A stretch of 64,000 nucleotides of DNA from a virus. The position numbers and the translations under genes were made by a program. The DNA lies in the IMG/VR virus record IMGVR_UViG_3300020392_000004. One strand, 5' to 3'. Below the pieces are notes generated by a model that was given only the letters and a program-made list of their open reading frames with translations, was not told the DNA's origin and made no database searches. How positions within the stretch are numbered: the stretch's first letter is position 1; the number at the start of each line of letters is the position of its first letter. Below are positions 39,929-46,947 of this stretch, piece after piece.

Positions 39929-40618
39929 TTACTTTGTTAAATTGAATGTTTCGTCTAAATCAAACAAGTTCCAATCTTCATCTATTTGACCTACTTGGTG
40001 ATTTCTCTGATTACCTATGTGATTAGTATTAACATTAAATGAAATAGAGTATCTATCTTTATCAGTTCTATTAGGTTCAACCATATGCATCATGGCACTT
40101 GGAAACATAATTAAACTTCCTGTGACAGGTTTTACTGCATAACTTTCTATACACCTTGCATTTGGTGGGTAATCTGATACAACCTTTGGGTCTGTATTGA
40201 TAGCTAAAAATTGACCTTCGTCTCCTTCTGAATGTATATAAAAAGCTCCACTATACCAACAACCATTGTGTAAGTGAGGTCTATTCCATGCAAGGTGGTC
40301 GTTTATATTTGCCCATGAATTACCTATATCTATCTGAACTTTTCCTCTATCGATACCATGGAATCCTGCTATCTCATTATTTAATATGTCTTTTAAAACT
40401 CTCATCAACTTAATAAATGTAGGGTGATTTTCACAACCGTCATTTGATTGCCAACCAGTATAGGCATTTGATATCTGTCTTCCAACTGGGTCTTTTTTTC
40501 TCATACCATCTATTGCGTCCTTCAACATTCCACAATATTCACTTGTAATCCTACCACTCTCTACAAGGTTTTCCTCATAACAAATAGTTGGAAATAGTAA
40601 TCTAATCCCTTTCTTCAT
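39929..40618 (-). CDS. Putative 2OG-Fe(II) oxygenase (TIGR02466-like)
   Basis: LFPT, GWQS, WANIN, PHLH, SGAFYI, MFPS.MMH.VEPN, RYSISFN. Confidence 0.85.
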   Translation of the reverse strand: MKKGIRLLFPTICYEENLVESGRITSEYCGMLKDAIDGMRKKDPVGRQISNAYTGWQSNDGCENHPTFIKLMRVLKDILNNEIAGFHGIDRGKVQIDIGNSWANINDHLAWNRPHLHNGCWYSGAFYIHSEGDEGQFLAINTDPKVVSDYPPNARCIESYAVKPVTGSLIMFPSAMMHMVEPNRTDKDRYSISFNVNTNHIGNQRNHQVGQIDEDWNLFDLDETFNLTK

Positions 40619-41546
40619 GTCCGTCCCAGTTTAAGTCTGTCAAACTTCTTTGTTTCTCTTTGAAATCCATTTCTAATTGAACTTCTTCTTTCTTATGCAT
40701 AGGGCATTCGGGTGGAGGATTTTCACCTTCTGCATATAGATTAGCTTTATTAGTTTTAAATCCACCTTTTCTATAACCACCGATATTCAGTCTATCGTCA
40801 ACTGATTTATAAGCACCAGTTTCCATATCTATTAATCCTTGTTTCACTTGCCATTTTTGCATTGATTGTTCTGATATTCCATGGGTATTAAACCAGTCTT
40901 TAGATTCTCCATAAAAATAAGTTGATTTCCATTCGTCTCTTTTATAGGGAACTATTTGTAGTATAGGTGTTCCTTTCGGTATAATAAAAGAATGTTTTAC
41001 TTTAGGATAGAATATAATTTGTGCATTATCCATACCTAAATTAAAAGTATCTGTATCAATTATACCTTGCCATACTGCAAAATATTTATTTTGAAATAAG
41101 AATGGGTCTATGAAAAAAACTGAATAGCCTGGAGGTGTAGTTATGTTCCAAAAGTTTCCCATTTTAAATGCATCTTTTACAGGCCCTTCGTCACCCATAT
41201 ATTCAAATGAATCTTGGAACTGTGCAGCTGGGTGAGTTGGTGACGCTTGCATATTATCACTTCCGTCTAAATGAAATGGGCTAGTGGTCATTCTTTCACT
41301 TTCTTCTGGCCAATCCCAATCAAATCCATTCATAACAGGAATGTCACATGCAGTAATAATATACCAACCAGTTTTTAAATAATCGTCCATGGCTGGACAA
41401 GACCTAACAGTTTGAGCTCCCTCTCCTCTATGGTCAATTCTAATCTTTGCAGTTTTCCACCATTCAGGCATGTATGTTTTTGCAACAACAGGCTTGAATC
41501 TCTGAAAAGCTTCGGGATTATATGTTCTAAATTCAATTGTTGGCAT
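40602..41546 (-). CDS. Conserved marine-phage hypothetical protein (double-stranded beta-helix-like)
   Basis: PEWWK, TVRSCPAMDD, ITTPPGYS, GIIDTD, IPKGTPILQIVPYKR; a family commonly found next to phage oxygenases. Confidence 0.65.
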   Translation of the reverse strand: MPTIEFRTYNPEAFQRFKPVVAKTYMPEWWKTAKIRIDHRGEGAQTVRSCPAMDDYLKTGWYIITACDIPVMNGFDWDWPEESERMTTSPFHLDGSDNMQASPTHPAAQFQDSFEYMGDEGPVKDAFKMGNFWNITTPPGYSVFFIDPFLFQNKYFAVWQGIIDTDTFNLGMDNAQIIFYPKVKHSFIIPKGTPILQIVPYKRDEWKSTYFYGESKDWFNTHGISEQSMQKWQVKQGLIDMETGAYKSVDDRLNIGGYRKGGFKTNKANLYAEGENPPPECPMHKKEEVQLEMDFKEKQRSLTDLNWDGHEERD

Positions 41547-42270
41547 ATCTTTGGTGTTCGTCTAGTAAACGAACTTCGTCTCCTCTTAAAACAATAGACT
41601 TCCTATCTATATATCTTGCGTCTTTAGAGGGTGATTCTGCACCGTGTGGTATTCTTCCGTCAAACATTAAGAGACGATTCGGTTTGAATCCAACTCTTCC
41701 TATTTCATATCTATCCATGAGTTTTCTTGCACCCGTAGGGACATATCTGTCATAAAATCTTAAATCACCACCCCAGTTTTCATTCCAAAAAGTATTAGTG
41801 TAATATAAAAATGATAAATTATAATCGTCTTCCATACTACAATCAGAATGACAACTTCCGTCTAAACCGTGTGTTTGTGAGTTTGTTCCCATGTATTGAA
41901 ATCTTACCCACTCAAAAGCAAAATCAGTTCTAATCTTTCTATCAAACCAATACATTAAATGTGGAGTTCCATATTTGTGTGATTCACATTCTAATTTTAA
42001 GTATCTTCCGTCACCTGCTTCTCTTCCTCTGAAATATGAAGCTCCCCATAATTGGTGATTCGGTAAACCACCTCTACCACCGTCACCTTGAACTTCGTTA
42101 TGTTTTTGCCATGAGGTTCTTTGACTTAAAAAAAGGTCTACTGCTTGATGAAGTGAGGAATCTAGATAATTGTCTATAACATATACCTTATTACCAAGAG
42201 GCAACTCGGTTATATAAAAGGGAGAATCAATATCGATTCTTTCTATAGAGTTATAGGTTTTGCTCGGCAT
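41533..42270 (-). CDS. 2OG-Fe(II) oxygenase (prolyl hydroxylase-like)
   Basis: HSD, FLYY...W.ENWGGDL.F, PNRLLMFDG.IPH, R.SIV. Confidence 0.85.
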   Translation of the reverse strand: MPSKTYNSIERIDIDSPFYITELPLGNKVYVIDNYLDSSLHQAVDLFLSQRTSWQKHNEVQGDGGRGGLPNHQLWGASYFRGREAGDGRYLKLECESHKYGTPHLMYWFDRKIRTDFAFEWVRFQYMGTNSQTHGLDGSCHSDCSMEDDYNLSFLYYTNTFWNENWGGDLRFYDRYVPTGARKLMDRYEIGRVGFKPNRLLMFDGRIPHGAESPSKDARYIDRKSIVLRGDEVRLLDEHQRYANN

Positions 42271-42826
42271 TATATCCTCCGTCCTTCAAAGTTGAAGGTG
42301 TAGGTAAAGCCATTAGATAATCTTCGATAGGTTTTAGTGTATCTTCTCTAGTGACAGATATTTCTCTAAATAAACCGTCAAGAACATTGTTAACTGCATC
42401 TGCATATTCAAGAACCCTTCTTGCGTCTGACCTGTAAGGGTGAGCAGAACCTTCTCTTCCAGCATATACTGATTCAAAAAAATCATCAAAACCATGCTTT
42501 TGTGCATGTATATGTATATTTTCTCTTGCAGTTCTATTGATTTCACCAATATATTGATTGTTCAAATTTACACCGTGAGGTGGTTCGGAATTTGCAATAT
42601 ATTGTTCAATACTATCTCTTTCTGTTTCAGATAAAGGTAATGTTTCTTGTTGTTCTAGGGGTTTATCATCTTCCCATTTCAATACTTTGACTTCTATTTG
42701 GTCATATATTAAAACTTCAAAATCAAAACCTAAATCAGGTTTATCGACATTGTCAAATCTATATTCTAGTCCATTTGGTTTTCTAATTGTTAGATTCCCA
42801 AATTCACAATAAGTTAATGCATTCAT
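42251..42826 (-). CDS. Hypothetical protein, tail-fibre-assembly-like
   Basis: C-terminal AQKHGFDD...Y....HPYRSDA.......D.V...LP resembles phage fibre-assembly proteins; weak. Confidence 0.45.
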   Translation of the reverse strand: MNALTYCEFGNLTIRKPNGLEYRFDNVDKPDLGFDFEVLIYDQIEVKVLKWEDDKPLEQQETLPLSETERDSIEQYIANSEPPHGVNLNNQYIGEINRTARENIHIHAQKHGFDDFFESVYAGREGSAHPYRSDARRVLEYADAVNNVLDGLFREISVTREDTLKPIEDYLMALPTPSTLKDGGYNAEQNL

Positions 42827-42847
42827 AATAATCTCCAGTATATCACA

Positions 42848-44509
42848 CTAGTCTTTGTTTGGTAAGGTGCTTTTTACCTTATAGTATTGCTCCAACATAT
42901 TTATGTCTGAACAATCCATGTCTTTTATCCACGGCCCACCTCTTGTATAATGGACTGCATGGTGTGAATCAAGACACTCTGTTTCAAATCCCTCTGTTGC
43001 AATTTTCCCATGAGGTATTTTACTAATTTTATCTGTCCACTCAAACTGGTGTAAGTATTTACCAGTTGCAGTATTGACAACTTCGGGTGTTAACTTTTTA
43101 CAATCTTCATGTCCGTTATTAAATATCATCATACTAGACCATAATTTTTTAGGATATGATACATTTCTTTCTCCACCCATTTTAACTTCGTCATGGTGTT
43201 CAAAATCATACTGAACACATGCCACCGCATTGTCGGGGTCAAGGAAATAGAAAAATGGTAAAGGTGTTCTTTTCCATATGTAATCATTATCTATGAAGAT
43301 ACTAAATCCTTCATAGTTTTCAAGATATGGAATTAAAAATCTACTGTAAGTAAATTCAGTAGATTGATTTGCATAGTCTCTATTATAATCTTTTAATTTG
43401 CTAATGTCAAGTAATTTAACTTCTATTTTGTAATCATTGAAGTAATCTTCTCCGACTCCTCTACTTTTTGACTTTTCTATGCTATCATGTATTGACTTTT
43501 CACAAACTTCATGTATAATATTATCGTGAGAAGAATCATAACCAATGTATATGTTTAGAGGCTTCTTTTTACATAACAATGAAACCTTTTTATTGAAATC
43601 ATAAACATATTTTCTAAAATCTGTTCCCCCTCCCTGTTGTAAAGGAACACTAAATTCTATTTTTCTTTGGTCTGTATAAATTGCACTTACATTTTTAGAA
43701 TTTTCAGGGACTAGAGATAACCAATATGTTTTTAAATCTTCATATGATAAACTAGGGTGTCTTGGAAAACAATTTGCATAATCTGTGACTAGACAAGTAT
43801 TATCAGGATAATCCATAGATTGAAAAGACCTACTTCTCATTGAGCCTGGGTGTATAGATAAAGAATTTATACCGCCATGATTTCCTGTGTGTTGAGTTAG
43901 TCCTTGGATAGGTTGCCAGAGACCATTATTTTGTATGTCATTTATTAACCAGTGTGCTTTTGCAGCGTGATAAAACACAGATTGTATAGTATTTTCATGT
44001 TCTAATACCATTGATTCGTCCATGGAACCACCCATTAAATCAATATAATCTTGATTACCTTCTTGATAACCATACATTTTTGCAAATCTTTTTCTTTCTT
44101 CGTCTGTAATTTTTAAGGGTGTCGTTATGGTTTTATATTCTCCTTCCACTGTCATAAAATCCATGGAACCACCTTTTATTCCATGTCGAGGTCTACATTT
44201 TTCTGTCCAACCTTCATGTAAGAATTTTAAATATTGATAAGAATTATGGTCTAGTCCACCCCATGACATAATTTCTTTATTGTCCATTAAAGGTTTTATA
44301 TCTTTCCATGTGACTAATCTGATAGGAGGCATACATTCTTCTATGATATATTTCCAAACCTCTTCGGTTTCGTCTGTATCTCTTCTATGCTCTGGTATAG
44401 GGACTTGACCTAATTTCATTTGCCTAGTAGGCATATCTTCATAAGAAGTATAAGGTTTAAAAAACTGTTTTGCTTTTTCTAGGGTGTTGATTTCTTCAAA
44501 AGTATCCAT
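42848..44509 (-). CDS. Two-domain protein with C-terminal GT-A glycosyltransferase
   Basis: IYIGYDS, STEFTYSRFLIPYL, DND (DxD), YPKKLWSSMMIFN, HYTRGGPW; N-terminal ~310 aa unassigned. CTAAATA late-promoter variant at 44520-44526. Confidence 0.8.
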   Translation of the reverse strand: MDTFEEINTLEKAKQFFKPYTSYEDMPTRQMKLGQVPIPEHRRDTDETEEVWKYIIEECMPPIRLVTWKDIKPLMDNKEIMSWGGLDHNSYQYLKFLHEGWTEKCRPRHGIKGGSMDFMTVEGEYKTITTPLKITDEERKRFAKMYGYQEGNQDYIDLMGGSMDESMVLEHENTIQSVFYHAAKAHWLINDIQNNGLWQPIQGLTQHTGNHGGINSLSIHPGSMRSRSFQSMDYPDNTCLVTDYANCFPRHPSLSYEDLKTYWLSLVPENSKNVSAIYTDQRKIEFSVPLQQGGGTDFRKYVYDFNKKVSLLCKKKPLNIYIGYDSSHDNIIHEVCEKSIHDSIEKSKSRGVGEDYFNDYKIEVKLLDISKLKDYNRDYANQSTEFTYSRFLIPYLENYEGFSIFIDNDYIWKRTPLPFFYFLDPDNAVACVQYDFEHHDEVKMGGERNVSYPKKLWSSMMIFNNGHEDCKKLTPEVVNTATGKYLHQFEWTDKISKIPHGKIATEGFETECLDSHHAVHYTRGGPWIKDMDCSDINMLEQYYKVKSTLPNKD

Positions 44510-44536: not shown

Positions 44537-45433
44537 TTAACTAGAAATCGGAGTTCCAGGCCACTGTTGTTGTAATACACCGTCCCATCTTGGAACTGGT
44601 GTTCTTCCTTGTCTTGCGTAAGTGGTTGGATTCTGATTTGAATATGTAGTCGGTGTTTGACCCTGTCTAGCATAAGTCGAAGGACTTCTATGATTGTAAG
44701 TAAATGGTGTCTGACCTTGTCTTGCATAAGTTGTTGGGTTCTGATTTGCATAGGTAAAAGGAGTTCGTCCTGTTGCCTGATATGTTGAAGGTGACCTAAA
44801 GTTATATGTAAACGGTGTTTGACCTTGTCTCTCGTATGTTGACGGAGATTGATAATCATAAGTAGACGGTGTTTGACCCTGTCTTTCATAAGTTGAAGGA
44901 GACTGATAATCATATGTGAAAGGTGTTTGACCTGTTCTTTGATATGTTGAAGGTGACCTATAATCGTAAGTAGAAGGTTGCCTTGCGTCTCTTATGTTTG
45001 GTTCTTGTGCTGACCTAATGTTTGGTTCTTGTGCTGACCTAATGTTTGGTTCTTGAGCATTAGCAGGGTATGTAAATGGTTGTTGTCCTGACCTAATATT
45101 AGGCTCCTGTGCTGACACTGGGTTTCTGTAAGTGAAAGGTGACCTATGATGATATGTAAAAGGTTGTCTTGCTGGTGCTTGATATGTAAAGGGTGACCTA
45201 TAATGATATGTAAAAGGTTGTCTTGCTGGTGCCTGATAGGTGAATGGTGACCTATAATGATATGTAAATGGACTTCTAGCAGGTGCTTGATATGTAAACG
45301 GTGACCTATAGTTATAAGTGAATGGTTGTCTTGCACTTGCAATATATGGGTTTTGAGTTCCGTATGGGCTCTGATAACTTGCACCGACTGGTTGTCTTGC
45401 TTGAAATGTAAATGGACTCTGATAAAATGGCAT
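44537..45433 (-). CDS. Gln/Pro/Tyr/Thr-rich repeat protein (mirror partner of 45436-46947)
   Basis: 31 xxP-anchored units of 6-12 aa. Confidence 0.85.
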   Translation of the reverse strand: MPFYQSPFTFQARQPVGASYQSPYGTQNPYIASARQPFTYNYRSPFTYQAPARSPFTYHYRSPFTYQAPARQPFTYHYRSPFTYQAPARQPFTYHHRSPFTYRNPVSAQEPNIRSGQQPFTYPANAQEPNIRSAQEPNIRSAQEPNIRDARQPSTYDYRSPSTYQRTGQTPFTYDYQSPSTYERQGQTPSTYDYQSPSTYERQGQTPFTYNFRSPSTYQATGRTPFTYANQNPTTYARQGQTPFTYNHRSPSTYARQGQTPTTYSNQNPTTYARQGRTPVPRWDGVLQQQWPGTPISS

Positions 45434-46791
45434 AATTATCTCTTCTGCATGTTATGGACTACAAAGTCATTTGCAAAGAAGTTAGCATTATCACTTACAC
45501 GAGTCAAGTGATAGACCTCATGTTCTCCTTCCAGTTTGTTAATATTTGATATTTTTGCAGTTGATTGATTGTTTAAAATCAATGATAATGAATCTACAAG
45601 AATATCCCCCTCTTCAATTAGGCCAGAGATTTCTCCACCCCAAGCTGCACCCATGGCAACTTCTTTTTCCCAATCTTCCATGTTTATGACACACCAACCT
45701 TTATCTTGAATCAACATTGGGTGTCCACCAGTCACACCAGTAATCTTACCGTTGACTTCTATATCATATAATTCACATACTCTAGGTTGCATAATTTCTT
45801 CGACCACTCCAACTTCTAGTGTATCTCCTAGTGTCATGACTGACATACCAATCTCTATAGACTCGATAGGTCTGTATGTATTGTCTCCCATCCATATCAT
45901 AGTTCCCATTGCGAAACAACCGTGTCCAGTAGGTAAGCCTGGTGAACCACCGCCTGGGTAGTAAACTGGTTGTCTTGCTTGACCGATATATGGACTCTGA
46001 TATGAGAACGGAACTGGTTGTCTTGCACTGCCCGGCTGTCGTGCATGATAGGTAAATGGGTTTTGAGCAGACCTAATGTTTGGTTGCTGAATATTCGCAG
46101 GATATGTAATTGGTTGTTGAGCAGACCTAATGTTTGGTTGCTGAATATTCGCAGGATATGTAAATGGATTCTGTCCATTCCTGATATTCGGTTGTTGAAT
46201 ATTTGCTGGATATGTAAATGGATTCTGTCCATTCCTGATATTAGGCTCCTGTGCTGACACTGGGTTTCTGTATGTAAACGGTGACCTATAGTTATATGTA
46301 AATGGACTCCTTGCTGATGCTTGATAAGTGAACGGAGACCTGTAGTTATATGTAAACGGTGACCTATGATTGTATGTAAAAGGTGACCTATGGTCGTATG
46401 TGAACGGATTCTGTCTGTTCCTTATATTCGGTTCCTGTGCATTTGCAATGTAAGGATATGGCTGTTGTGCATTTCTGATATTAGGTTCCTGTGCATTTGC
46501 CTGATAAGGATAAGGAGTTTGTTTATTCCTTATGTTTGGTTCTTGAGCATTTGCAATGTAAGGATATGGTTGTTGTGCGTCCCTAATGTTTGGTTCCTGT
46601 GCATTTGCAATATACGGATAAGGTTGTTGTGCATTTGCAATATAAGGTGACCCACCGTTTGCAATATAAGGATAAGGTTGTTGTGCGTCTCTTATATTTG
46701 GTTCTTGAGCATTTGCAATGTATGGATATGGATTCTGTGCATTTGCAATGTATGGAGAACCACCCTGTGCAATATATGGGTAAGGTTGTTG
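44606..46791 (-). repeat. Two coding arrays of degenerate 24/30-bp units (44606-45421 and 45976-46791)
   Basis: Tandem units such as tgctgacctaatgtttggttctt; includes an identical 35-bp direct repeat at 45096-45130 and 46238-46272. Confidence 0.9.
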
Positions 46792-46947
46792 TGTTGCCTC
46801 TTGACCTGAAGCATTATTCCACCCGCCTGGAGCTTTGATATAAATTTGGTCAACTGCTTTCCAAGTAGACGGGCCTGTCTTGACCCATGCACCTTGAGTT
46901 GCATTCCAACCTGATGGGGTTTTAACTTTCTGTGAACCTGACGCCAT
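45436..46947 (-). CDS. Fibre-associated Gln/Pro/Tyr repeat protein with C-terminal HINT (intein-like) domain
   Basis: Trp-rich N-terminus (WVKTG..TWKAVDQIYIK..GGW), 31 repeat units, then CFAMGTMI...TGGHP...NFFANDFVVHN. Confidence 0.88.
   Translation of the reverse strand: MASGSQKVKTPSGWNATQGAWVKTGPSTWKAVDQIYIKAPGGWNNASGQEATQQPYPYIAQGGSPYIANAQNPYPYIANAQEPNIRDAQQPYPYIANGGSPYIANAQQPYPYIANAQEPNIRDAQQPYPYIANAQEPNIRNKQTPYPYQANAQEPNIRNAQQPYPYIANAQEPNIRNRQNPFTYDHRSPFTYNHRSPFTYNYRSPFTYQASARSPFTYNYRSPFTYRNPVSAQEPNIRNGQNPFTYPANIQQPNIRNGQNPFTYPANIQQPNIRSAQQPITYPANIQQPNIRSAQNPFTYHARQPGSARQPVPFSYQSPYIGQARQPVYYPGGGSPGLPTGHGCFAMGTMIWMGDNTYRPIESIEIGMSVMTLGDTLEVGVVEEIMQPRVCELYDIEVNGKITGVTGGHPMLIQDKGWCVINMEDWEKEVAMGAAWGGEISGLIEEGDILVDSLSLILNNQSTAKISNINKLEGEHEVYHLTRVSDNANFFANDFVVHNMQKR

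What the first reader, a model, noticed from the sequence alone, without database searches (positions are those of the whole stretch)
45436..45918. HINT domain placed at the predicted zipper tip, where the hairpin is split into two genes
Seen: after a GGGSPGLPTGHG linker comes C344-FAMGT, a TGGHP block-B motif and a terminal VVHN followed only by MQKR, with no C/S/T +1 nucleophile. Known: such bacterial-intein-like/Hedgehog-type HINT domains form a thioester at the first Cys and cleave or ligate rather than splice. Inference: antiparallel pairing would put this thioester next to the N-terminus of the partner chain (M-PFYQ, encoded 2 nt after the stop). The domain could be a self-removing folding chaperone, could ligate the two chains or a small molecule, or could react with a host surface nucleophile.
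Basis: partly seen in the sequence, partly recalled or inferred. Interest (0 to 1): 0.8.

Follow-up and report, generated by a model that had tools for sequence, protein, structure and literature searches.

The report
Optional self-excising Hint cap on fibre tip
A repeat-fibre protein of an uncultured marine T4-like phage ends in a real intein-like (Hint) domain at the far turn of a two-chain fibre, but sister phages lack it at that same spot, so it most likely cuts itself out rather than joining the two chains.

Summary
Residues 344-499 of the 503-aa protein (window 45451-45918, minus strand) form a Hint domain: AlphaFold2 pLDDT 92, and its closest solved relatives are bacterial-intein-like (BIL) domains. 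Cys1, block-B TxxH and the terminal His-Asn are invariant in all relatives examined. The +1 residue is Met, only MQKR follows, and gene B starts 2 nt after the stop.

My own tests also support the antiparallel A/B "zipper", so the Hint does sit at the tip. A and B repeat lengths correlate at r=0.998-0.999. A's unit boundaries match reversed B (0.93) and not forward B (0.47), in 18 of 18 pairs.

The new result is that the Hint is optional. Related phages carry "bare" alleles in which the same Gly linker runs straight into the same kind of short tail. Others carry a globular tip domain instead. All three classes keep the two-gene split and the length matching. A Lys in the tail goes with the Hint: 32 of 32 Hint tails against 5 of 13 bare ends.

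Best reading: a type-A-BIL-like cap that removes itself by cleavage or by splicing onto its tail. Ligation to B stays possible but is not required. This scan has noted Gly-Hint-Lys caps on phage fibres in other genomes before (39 notes, at least 38 genomes).

The parts
45436..46947 (-). Gene A, 503 aa: N-terminal adaptor, repeat array, Gly linker, Hint domain, 4-aa tail
   Evidence: ORF list. 51 homologues found through the N-terminal 56 aa. 319 related stretches in IMG/VR.
46798..46947 (-). Conserved N-terminal domain of A (residues 1-50). It lies at the base end of the fibre and is a likely docking adaptor.
   Evidence: Mean pairwise identity is 83% across 31 homologues, against 40% for the Hint. 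Many columns are invariant.
45955..46797 (-). Repeat array of A (residues 51-331), built of 6-10-residue units of the PYPYIAN, EPNIR and SPFTY types, with an 18-aa (54-nt) period
   Evidence: Tandem Repeats Finder. Unit segmentation. Unit boundaries match those of reversed B.
45919..45954 (-). Gly-rich linker GGGSPGLPTGHG (residues 332-343). Gly343 is the -1 residue.
   Evidence: The -1 Gly is invariant in 31 aligned homologues and in all parsed Hint alleles.
45451..45918 (-). Hint domain, 156 aa (Cys344-Asn499), type-A BIL-like, with no endonuclease insert
   Evidence: dN/dS is 0.15-0.22.
45916..45918 (-). Cys344, the Hint residue 1 that would form the thioester
   Evidence: Invariant together with Phe345.
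45718..45732 (-). Block B, TGGHP (Thr406...His409-Pro410)
   Evidence: His409 and Pro410 are invariant and Thr406 is at least 90% conserved.
45451..45456 (-). Terminal His498-Asn499 (block G)
   Evidence: Invariant in both alignments.
45436..45450 (-). C-flank tail MQKR (Met500 is the +1 residue; Lys502) plus the TAA stop. Its purine-rich codons also lie where gene B's ribosome-binding site is expected.
   Evidence: 32 of 32 distinct Hint tails of the family hold Lys. So do 67 of 74 tails across terminal Hint proteins in general.
44537..45433 (-). Gene B, 298 aa: partner chain. Its repeat array mirrors A's, its C-terminus is conserved (RWDG...WPGTPISS), and it holds no Lys.

Best explanation
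Residues 344-499 are an active, type-A bacterial-intein-like (BIL) Hint domain. It is inserted between the Gly-rich distal end of chain A and a 4-residue Lys-bearing tail, at the turn of an antiparallel two-chain repeat fibre made of A and B.

It is an optional, self-excising cap and not part of the finished fibre. The inferred steps are these:
1. After translation, the Gly343-Cys344 peptide bond shifts to a thioester.
2. Asn499 cyclises and frees the tail.
3. The thioester is resolved in one of two ways. Water gives plain cleavage, leaving A(1-343). An amine of the tail, either the freed alpha-amine of Met500 or the epsilon-amine of Lys502, gives BIL-type splicing or an isopeptide.

The product has a tip like that of the natural Hint-less alleles.

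Shown here: fold, family, conserved catalytic residues, position, optional presence, Lys linkage and purifying selection. Inferred only: that processing happens, and which nucleophile wins. Whether the cap also helps assembly, for example by keeping the tip free until B has zipped on, is open.
For: **Fold and family.**
- AlphaFold2 pLDDT is 92.2.
- The best Foldseek matches are Tetrahymena BIL2 (6y75/6tmm, TM 0.78/0.85), DnaB mini-inteins and the C. thermocellum BIL 2lwy.
- The family profile ranks BIL2 (1.8e-21) and the C. thermocellum BIL (1.3e-17) above true inteins (4e-15) and Hedgehog (3e-4).

**Catalytic residues.**
- Gly-1, Cys1, Phe2, block-B His-Pro and the terminal His-Asn are invariant in 31 family members. 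These share only 40% mean Hint identity, against 83% in the N-domain.
- dN/dS is 0.15-0.22.

**Optional presence at one site.** IMG/VR relatives fall into Hint-capped, bare and globular-tip classes.
- Bare alleles read linker plus tail directly, for example ...PGGGSPG-HQQK. The window reads ...PGGGSPGLPTGHG[Hint]MQKR.
- Another bare allele reads ...YFYGGGGGGGG-FFPQQLK, where its Hint-bearing relative reads ...YFYGGGG[Hint]ISTK.
- On the tree of the neighbouring gene, Hint presence needs at least 4-5 changes. A bare allele nests with Hint alleles at 100% support.

**Lys linkage.**
- 32 of 32 distinct Hint tails hold Lys, against 5 of 13 bare ends (Fisher p=6e-6, not corrected for relatedness).
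- Among terminal Hint proteins in general the figure is 67 of 74 tails, against about 23 expected.

**Chemistry precedent.**
- Type-A BILs have a terminal His-Asn and lack a +1 nucleophile. They mostly cleave, but can splice through attack of the freed amine (PMC4031507).
- BIL2 joins a C-terminal Gly to a Lys epsilon-amine (PMC8616854).
Against: - No processing has been observed. Everything about the chemistry is inferred from conserved residues and from relatives.
- Lys and Arg codons in the tail overlap the expected ribosome-binding site of gene B in some lineages. Part of the tail's composition may therefore be a translational signal. In L001 and L010, however, the Shine-Dalgarno sequence is intergenic and the Lys is still there.
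- The Lys contrast between Hint and bare alleles rests on few independent clades.
- A domain with no homing endonuclease that is kept across so much divergence hints at a benefit that simple self-removal does not explain.
- The neighbour-gene tree may not reflect the history of gene A, because these modules recombine. dS against L015 is 0.03 in the N-domain and 0.41 in the Hint.
Confidence: 0.6

Rival explanations
1. Trans-ligation. The Gly343 thioester is attacked by the N-terminal amine of partner chain B (Pro2 after Met removal). This would covalently close the split hairpin into one chain. Alternatively it is attacked by an amine of another virion protein.
For: - The Hint lies at the tip, next to where B's N-terminus must lie in the antiparallel pair.
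- Residue 2 of B is Pro or Ala in all six lineages read first, so the Met should be removed, which is general knowledge of Met aminopeptidase.
- B has no Lys in 4 of 6 lineages, leaving its N-terminus as the only amine.
- BIL domains can ligate without nucleophilic side chains (PMC4031507).
- BIL2 transfers its N-flank to other proteins (PMC8616854).
Against: - Bare and globular-tip alleles keep the same two-gene split and the same length matching without any Hint. Closure is therefore not needed for this fibre type.
- B's N-terminus is no more conserved in Hint lineages than in Hint-less ones: MP.. or MA.. in both.
- The Hint-linked Lys in A's own tail points to an acceptor in cis.
- Aminolysis by a Pro secondary amine is chemically unfavourable. 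This last point is inference.
Confidence: 0.12
2. Retained tip domain or inert relic. The Hint stays on the mature fibre as a structural or binding knob, like the globular tip domains of sister alleles, or it is a decaying former intein with no activity.
For: - Other alleles carry a non-Hint globular domain of about 145 aa at the same place. The tip therefore tolerates, and may use, a domain.
Against: - All catalytic residues are invariant while the rest of the domain drifts to 24-40% identity. This is the pattern of conserved chemistry, not of a conserved binding surface.
- dN/dS of 0.15-0.22 argues against decay.
- No allele with a mutated Cys1 or His-Asn was seen among the complete family alleles parsed.
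Confidence: 0.08
3. Reactive warhead. The Hint is kept in the virion in amide-thioester equilibrium and couples the fibre tip covalently to a nucleophile on the host surface.
For: - Only the position at the distal tip of a virion fibre, and the known ability of BIL2 to acylate foreign Lys residues.
Against: - Hint-less alleles exist in close relatives.
- A Hint thioester would not be expected to survive long in free particles. This is inference.
- No supporting feature was found.
Confidence: 0.03

Closest known systems
Type-A bacterial intein-like (BIL) domains (Amitai 2003; Dassa 2004; C. thermocellum BIL, PDB 2lwy)
   Same: - Small Hint fold with no endonuclease.
- Starts with CF..GT and has TxxHP in block B.
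- Ends in His-Asn with no +1 nucleophile.
- Sits in a hypervariable surface protein.
- The family profile matches 2lwy at 1.3e-17 and Foldseek at 2e-7.
   Different: - Here it is phage-encoded.
- It sits at the very C-terminus, behind a Gly run, with only a 4-15-residue Lys-bearing tail.
- It is placed at the turn of a two-chain repeat fibre.
- It is present or absent at one fixed site among alleles.
- Its activity is untested.
BIL2 of the Tetrahymena thermophila BUBL1 polyubiquitin-like locus (PDB 6y75, 6tmm)
   Same: - It is the best structural match (TM 0.78/0.85) and the best profile match (1.8e-21).
- Its N-flank ends in Gly.
- The +1 residue is Met.
- A Lys in the C-flank is the acceptor of the N-flank, forming an isopeptide (PMC8616854).
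   Different: - Its flanks are ubiquitin-like domains of a ciliate.
- Here the flanks are a phage fibre and a tetrapeptide.
- Conjugation is not shown here.
Canonical mini-inteins (for example Ssp DnaB, gp41-1)
   Same: - Same fold and the same A, B and G block residues.
- Intein-free alleles exist with conserved flanks at the same site.
- 27% identity to helicase mini-inteins of Vibrio phages.
   Different: - The +1 residue is Met, and the family uses M, R, F, G, I, K, L, Y and A, with Ser once. The branched intermediate therefore cannot form.
- The host site is a Gly linker of a hypervariable structural protein, not a conserved enzyme motif.
Hedgehog/Hog C-terminal autoprocessing domain
   Same: - C-terminal Hint domain.
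- Cleavage-site motif Gly|Cys-Phe.
- The N-terminal product is released through a thioester.
   Different: - No sterol-recognition region follows the Hint here.
- A terminal His-Asn is present here.
- Similarity is weak: profile E=3e-4 and TM 0.55.
Self-cleaving C-terminal intramolecular chaperone domains of phage fibres and tailspikes (Peptidase_S74)
   Same: A functional analogy only: a C-terminal module of a phage fibre that is thought to be cut off after assembly. An upstream fibre in relative L006 has a weak S74 hit.
   Different: The fold and the chemistry are unrelated. There is no sequence or fold match to the Hint domain.

Membership tests
Hint superfamily | Hint fold | tested here: met
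   The AlphaFold2 model has pLDDT 92.2. Foldseek gives probability 1.0 to 57 solved Hint chains at E<=1e-3.
Type-A BIL domain | N-terminal Cys/Ser nucleophile and block-B Thr-x-x-His | tested here: met
   Cys344 and Thr406...His409 are invariant or nearly invariant in the two alignments.
Type-A BIL domain | C-terminal His-Asn | tested here: met
   His498-Asn499 is invariant.
Type-A BIL domain | No nucleophilic +1 residue in the C-flank | tested here: met
   The +1 residue is Met500. Across the 32 distinct family tails it is F, G, M, L, I, K, R, Y or A, with Ser once.
Type-A BIL domain | Closer in sequence to BILs than to inteins or Hog domains | tested here: met
   Profile E-values are BIL2 1.8e-21, C. 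thermocellum BIL 1.3e-17, DnaB intein 4e-15 and Hedgehog 3e-4.
Type-A BIL domain | Sits in variable, non-enzymatic (surface or secreted) host proteins | tested here: met
   The host is a hypervariable repeat fibre protein in the tail-fibre module of a T4-like phage.
Type-A BIL domain | Auto-cleavage or splicing activity | not testable with these tools
   This needs expression of the wild type against C344A and N499A.
Canonical (class 1) intein | Cys, Ser or Thr at +1 to form the branched intermediate | tested here: not met
   The +1 residue is Met500.
Canonical (class 1) intein | Intein-free alleles with conserved flanks at the same insertion site | tested here: met
   Bare alleles show linker plus tail without a Hint. 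At least 4-5 changes are needed on the neighbour-gene tree.
Canonical (class 1) intein | Homing endonuclease domain (optional in mini-inteins) | tested here: not met
   The domain is 156 aa with no insert.
Hedgehog/Hog autoprocessing domain | Hint followed by a sterol/adduct-recognition region, with no terminal His-Asn requirement | tested here: not met
   Only 4 residues follow Asn499. Profile and fold similarity are weak.
BUBL-type BIL (Gly-to-Lys conjugating) | N-flank ending in Gly and an acceptor Lys in the C-flank | tested here: met
   Gly343 is invariant. Lys is present in 32 of 32 Hint tails against 5 of 13 bare ends.
BUBL-type BIL (Gly-to-Lys conjugating) | Ubiquitin-like flanking domains | tested here: not met
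   The flanks are a repeat array and a tetrapeptide.
Peptidase_S74 intramolecular chaperone | S74 fold with a Ser-Lys dyad | tested here: not met
   No Pfam or PHROG hit of that kind on gene A. The fold is Hint.

The most novel reading that the evidence does not exclude
The Hint thioester is used productively in virion assembly. It would join Gly343 of chain A to the N-terminus of chain B, closing the split hairpin, or to another protein at the fibre tip. That would be an ATP-independent, single-turnover protein ligation step built into a phage fibre. The Hint-less alleles would then represent a non-covalent version of the same fibre.
Probability: 0.12. Interest if true: 0.85.

Novelty: new variant of a known kind. 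Interest (0 to 1): 0.55.

Why it matters
Terminal Hint domains behind a Gly run, followed by a tiny Lys-bearing tail, cap many phage tail and fibre proteins. My searches of the held library turned up no paper describing them.

This locus is a good natural experiment for three reasons:
- The same fibre exists with the Hint, without it, and with another tip domain. What the domain adds can therefore be asked directly.
- The conserved flanks predict exact products: a cleaved end ...TGHG, a spliced ...TGHG-MQKR, a Gly-to-Lys502 isopeptide, or a Gly343-Pro2(B) junction.
- A candidate trans acceptor lies one gene away.

If processing is confirmed, it adds thioester chemistry to the known ways of maturing phage fibres. 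It would also offer a compact (156 aa) natural C-terminal self-cleaving or ligating tag. If the domain turns out to be selfish, it is an intein-like element that spreads without a homing endonuclease in hypervariable structural genes.

Tried and rejected
- **Complex prediction.** I submitted A 262-503 with B 1-90.
- **The window's genome.** No whole genome is held for this window.
- **Searches of isolated phages.** Megablast of the locus found no match. tblastn of the repeat part of A found no match either, with the low-complexity filter on.
- **Pfam and PHROGs.** Gene A gave only sub-threshold Hint hits and gene B gave nothing.
- **Literature.** Four searches for Hint or intein-like domains in phage fibre or structural proteins found only true inteins in terminases and other enzymes. 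Dassa 2004 is not held, so I cite it through the review PMC4031507.
- **Read-through or frameshift joining A to B.** Rejected, because spacing (-1 to 19 nt), frame and stop codon all vary among lineages.
- **The Hint as the remnant of an intein in an ancestral single-chain hairpin.** Rejected for two reasons. No fused A-Hint-B or A-B form appears among 51 N-domain homologues, although lengths of 276-881 aa were searched. Hint-less alleles are split in the same way.
- **Other Hint domains in the window.** There are none.
- **P0009, a Hint followed by 153 further residues.** I read this as an out-of-frame run through the repeats and not as a real C-extein.

Full report
**1. The observation**

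The window is the structural module of an uncultured marine T4-like myovirus.
- It encodes a portal, major head protein, tail sheath, terminase and fibre-like proteins.
- The portal is 57% identical to those of Pelagibacter phage Mosig and Methylophilales phage Melnitz.
- No isolated phage matches the locus at the DNA level.

Gene A (45436-46947, minus strand, 503 aa) has these parts:
- a 50-residue N-terminal domain
- about 280 residues of short repeats
- the linker GGGSPGLPTGHG
- then Cys344-FAMGT, TGGHP (406-410), VVHN (496-499) and MQKR before the stop

Gene B (44537-45433, 298 aa, MPFYQ...) starts 2 nt after the stop, in another frame. Every element in the finding is therefore present at the stated coordinates.

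**2. It is a real Hint domain of the bacterial-intein-like kind**

- Pfam gives only sub-threshold Hint hits.
- A search of 1.84 billion representative proteins finds 751 relatives at E<=1e-3.
- An AlphaFold2 model built on 33 relatives has pLDDT 92.2.
- Foldseek puts BIL2 of the Tetrahymena BUBL1 locus first (TM 0.78/0.85). Mini-inteins and the C. thermocellum BIL follow, and Hedgehog is far behind.
- A family profile gives the same order: BIL2 1.8e-21, C. thermocellum BIL 1.3e-17, DnaB intein 4e-15, Hedgehog 3e-4.
- In 31 full-length homologues Gly343, Cys344, Phe345, His409, Pro410, His498 and Asn499 are invariant and Thr406 is nearly so.
- Mean pairwise Hint identity is only 40%, against 83% for the N-terminal domain.
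- dN/dS of the Hint is 0.15-0.22.
- The +1 residue is never Cys or Thr in this family, and is Ser once.

These are the defining features of type-A BIL domains. Such domains mostly cleave, but can splice when the amine freed by Asn cyclisation attacks the thioester (PMC4031507).

**3. The Hint does sit at the tip of an antiparallel A/B pair**

I tested this independently.
- In six diverged lineages gene B follows gene A within -1 to 14 nt, in any frame.
- The repeat-region lengths of A and B correlate at r=0.999.
- In IMG/VR relatives the correlation is 0.998 over lengths of 205-374 residues.
- Cutting the arrays into units shows that A's series of unit lengths equals B's series read backwards, almost unit for unit.
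- Boundary overlap is 0.93 with reversed B and 0.47 with forward B, and reversed is the better fit in 18 of 18 pairs.

The conserved non-repeat ends, A's N-terminus and B's C-terminus, therefore lie together at the base. The Gly linker, the Hint and B's N-terminus lie at the far end.

**4. The Hint is optional**

A scan of IMG/VR gave 70 loci with a recognisable A gene, and 63 of them have a B-like gene downstream. The loci fall into three tip classes.

| Tip class | What follows A's repeats | Gap before B |
|---|---|---|
| Hint-capped | Gly linker, Hint, short tail | -1 to 19 nt |
| Bare | Gly linker, then directly a short tail | -1 to 51 nt |
| Globular | a non-Hint domain of about 145 aa, with a small extra gene found in the gap in L013 | 283-529 nt |

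Two pairs show how closely bare alleles match Hint alleles:
- bare ...PGGGSPG-HQQK, against the window's ...PGGGSPGLPTGHG[Hint]MQKR
- bare ...YFYGGGGGGGG-FFPQQLK, against ...YFYGGGG[Hint]ISTK

All three classes keep the two-gene split and the A/B length matching. The correlations are 0.998, 0.969 and 0.992, the last with a constant offset equal to the extra domain.

On a tree of the neighbouring 553-aa gene, Hint presence needs at least 4-5 changes, and a bare allele nests with Hint alleles at 100% support.

In the Hint-domain tree the family's Hints form one loose group. That group also holds Hints from other phage proteins, including a lambda gpI-like tail protein.

Three conclusions follow:
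- The split of the hairpin does not depend on the Hint.
- The finished fibre does not need the Hint.
- Bare alleles look like the product expected if the Hint excised itself.

**5. The tail matters**

- All 32 distinct tails behind the Hint in this family contain Lys.
- Only 5 of 13 bare C-termini do (p=6e-6, not corrected for relatedness).
- Among terminal Hint proteins of all kinds, 67 of 74 tails hold Lys against about 23 expected, and Lys is the commonest +1 residue.
- Part of this could reflect the purine-rich ribosome-binding site of gene B inside the tail codons. The Lys persists, however, where the Shine-Dalgarno sequence is intergenic.
- BIL2, the closest solved relative, joins the C-terminal Gly of its N-flank to a Lys epsilon-amine of its C-flank or of other proteins (PMC8616854).

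**6. Mechanism**

Self-excision is the most likely mechanism (about 0.6):
1. The Gly343-Cys344 bond shifts to a thioester.
2. Asn499 cyclises.
3. The thioester is resolved by water, or by an amine of the tail (Met500 alpha-amine or Lys502 epsilon-amine).

The result is a tip like that of the bare alleles. Whether the transient cap aids assembly or is merely tolerated is open.

The rivals rank as follows:
- Ligation to B's N-terminus (about 0.12) remains chemically possible and is well placed. The bare alleles show it is not needed, and B's N-terminus carries no Hint-specific signature.
- A retained or inert domain (about 0.08) conflicts with invariant catalytic residues on a drifting scaffold.
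- A host-directed warhead (about 0.03) has no support.

**7. Novelty**

- The domain is a member of a known kind, type-A BIL.
- BFVD lists many uncharacterised phage 'Hint domain containing' proteins.
- This scan already holds 39 notes, in at least 38 genomes, on Hint caps on phage fibres, several describing the Gly-Hint-Lys form.
- My four searches of the held library found no paper on it.

What is new here:
- the fixed-site presence/absence polymorphism, with bare alleles that look like the spliced product
- the Hint-linked Lys within one family
- the position at the turn of a split, mirror-repeat, two-chain fibre

Noticed in passing
window 44537-46947; loci L001, L006, L008-L010, L015-L094: Genes A and B encode repeat arrays that match in total length (r about 0.97-0.999 over 205-543 residues). 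They also match unit for unit when B is read backwards. This holds in all three tip classes. It is strong comparative support for an antiparallel two-chain fibre.
   Followed up: yes
window 39929-44509; the same gene order in L001, L005, L006, L009 and L010: Directly downstream of B lies a conserved block. It holds a 553-aa protein whose C-terminal half matches glycosyltransferases (tblastn), a 191-aa protein, and two 2OG-Fe(II) oxygenase-family proteins (PF13640, PF13759). This suggests hydroxylation or glycosylation of the Pro/Ser/Thr/Tyr-rich repeats.
   Followed up: partly
L013:1490-3925, and about 13 further IMG/VR loci (for example L051, L070, L082): Some alleles replace the Hint with a non-Hint globular domain of about 145 aa. 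In L013 a 94-aa gene lies between A and B. This is possibly a receptor-binding tip with a helper protein.
   Followed up: partly
P0006, P0007, P0010, P0014 and others: Metagenomic proteins made of up to seven tandem Hint domains, joined head to tail by ...VHN-K-(G)-CF... junctions. P0153 has Hint domains followed by a ubiquitin-like start (HN|SMQIFVKT), like the ciliate BUBL loci.
   Followed up: no
L012:6001-7302: In a lambda-like tail-tip cluster (Phage_min_tail, Phage_tail_L, JAB+NlpC/P60, then this gene, then an 1830-aa J-like protein), the gpI-position protein ends in a Hint domain of the same family, followed by a 10-residue Lys-bearing tail.
   Followed up: partly
P0064, P0070, P0084, P0102, P0116: A second protein family has an unrelated N-terminal domain of about 150-180 aa, then GGGGGG, then a terminal Hint of the same clade and a short Lys-bearing tail. 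Its Hints nest among those of the A family in the domain tree.
   Followed up: partly
L005:7362-8232: In the closest relative (Hint 97-98% identical) gene B is read as two ORFs of 167 and 134 aa in different frames. This is either a frameshift or an assembly error within the repeats.
   Followed up: no
window 45436-46947 compared with L015: Synonymous divergence is 0.03 in the N-terminal 50 codons but 0.41 in the Hint. Either gene A is a recombination mosaic or the 5' end is constrained at the DNA level.
   Followed up: no
L006:243-2075: A 610-aa fibre-like protein two genes upstream of gene A in a relative has a weak Peptidase_S74 (self-cleaving intramolecular chaperone) hit. Two different self-processing C-terminal modules may therefore serve neighbouring fibres.
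   Followed up: no
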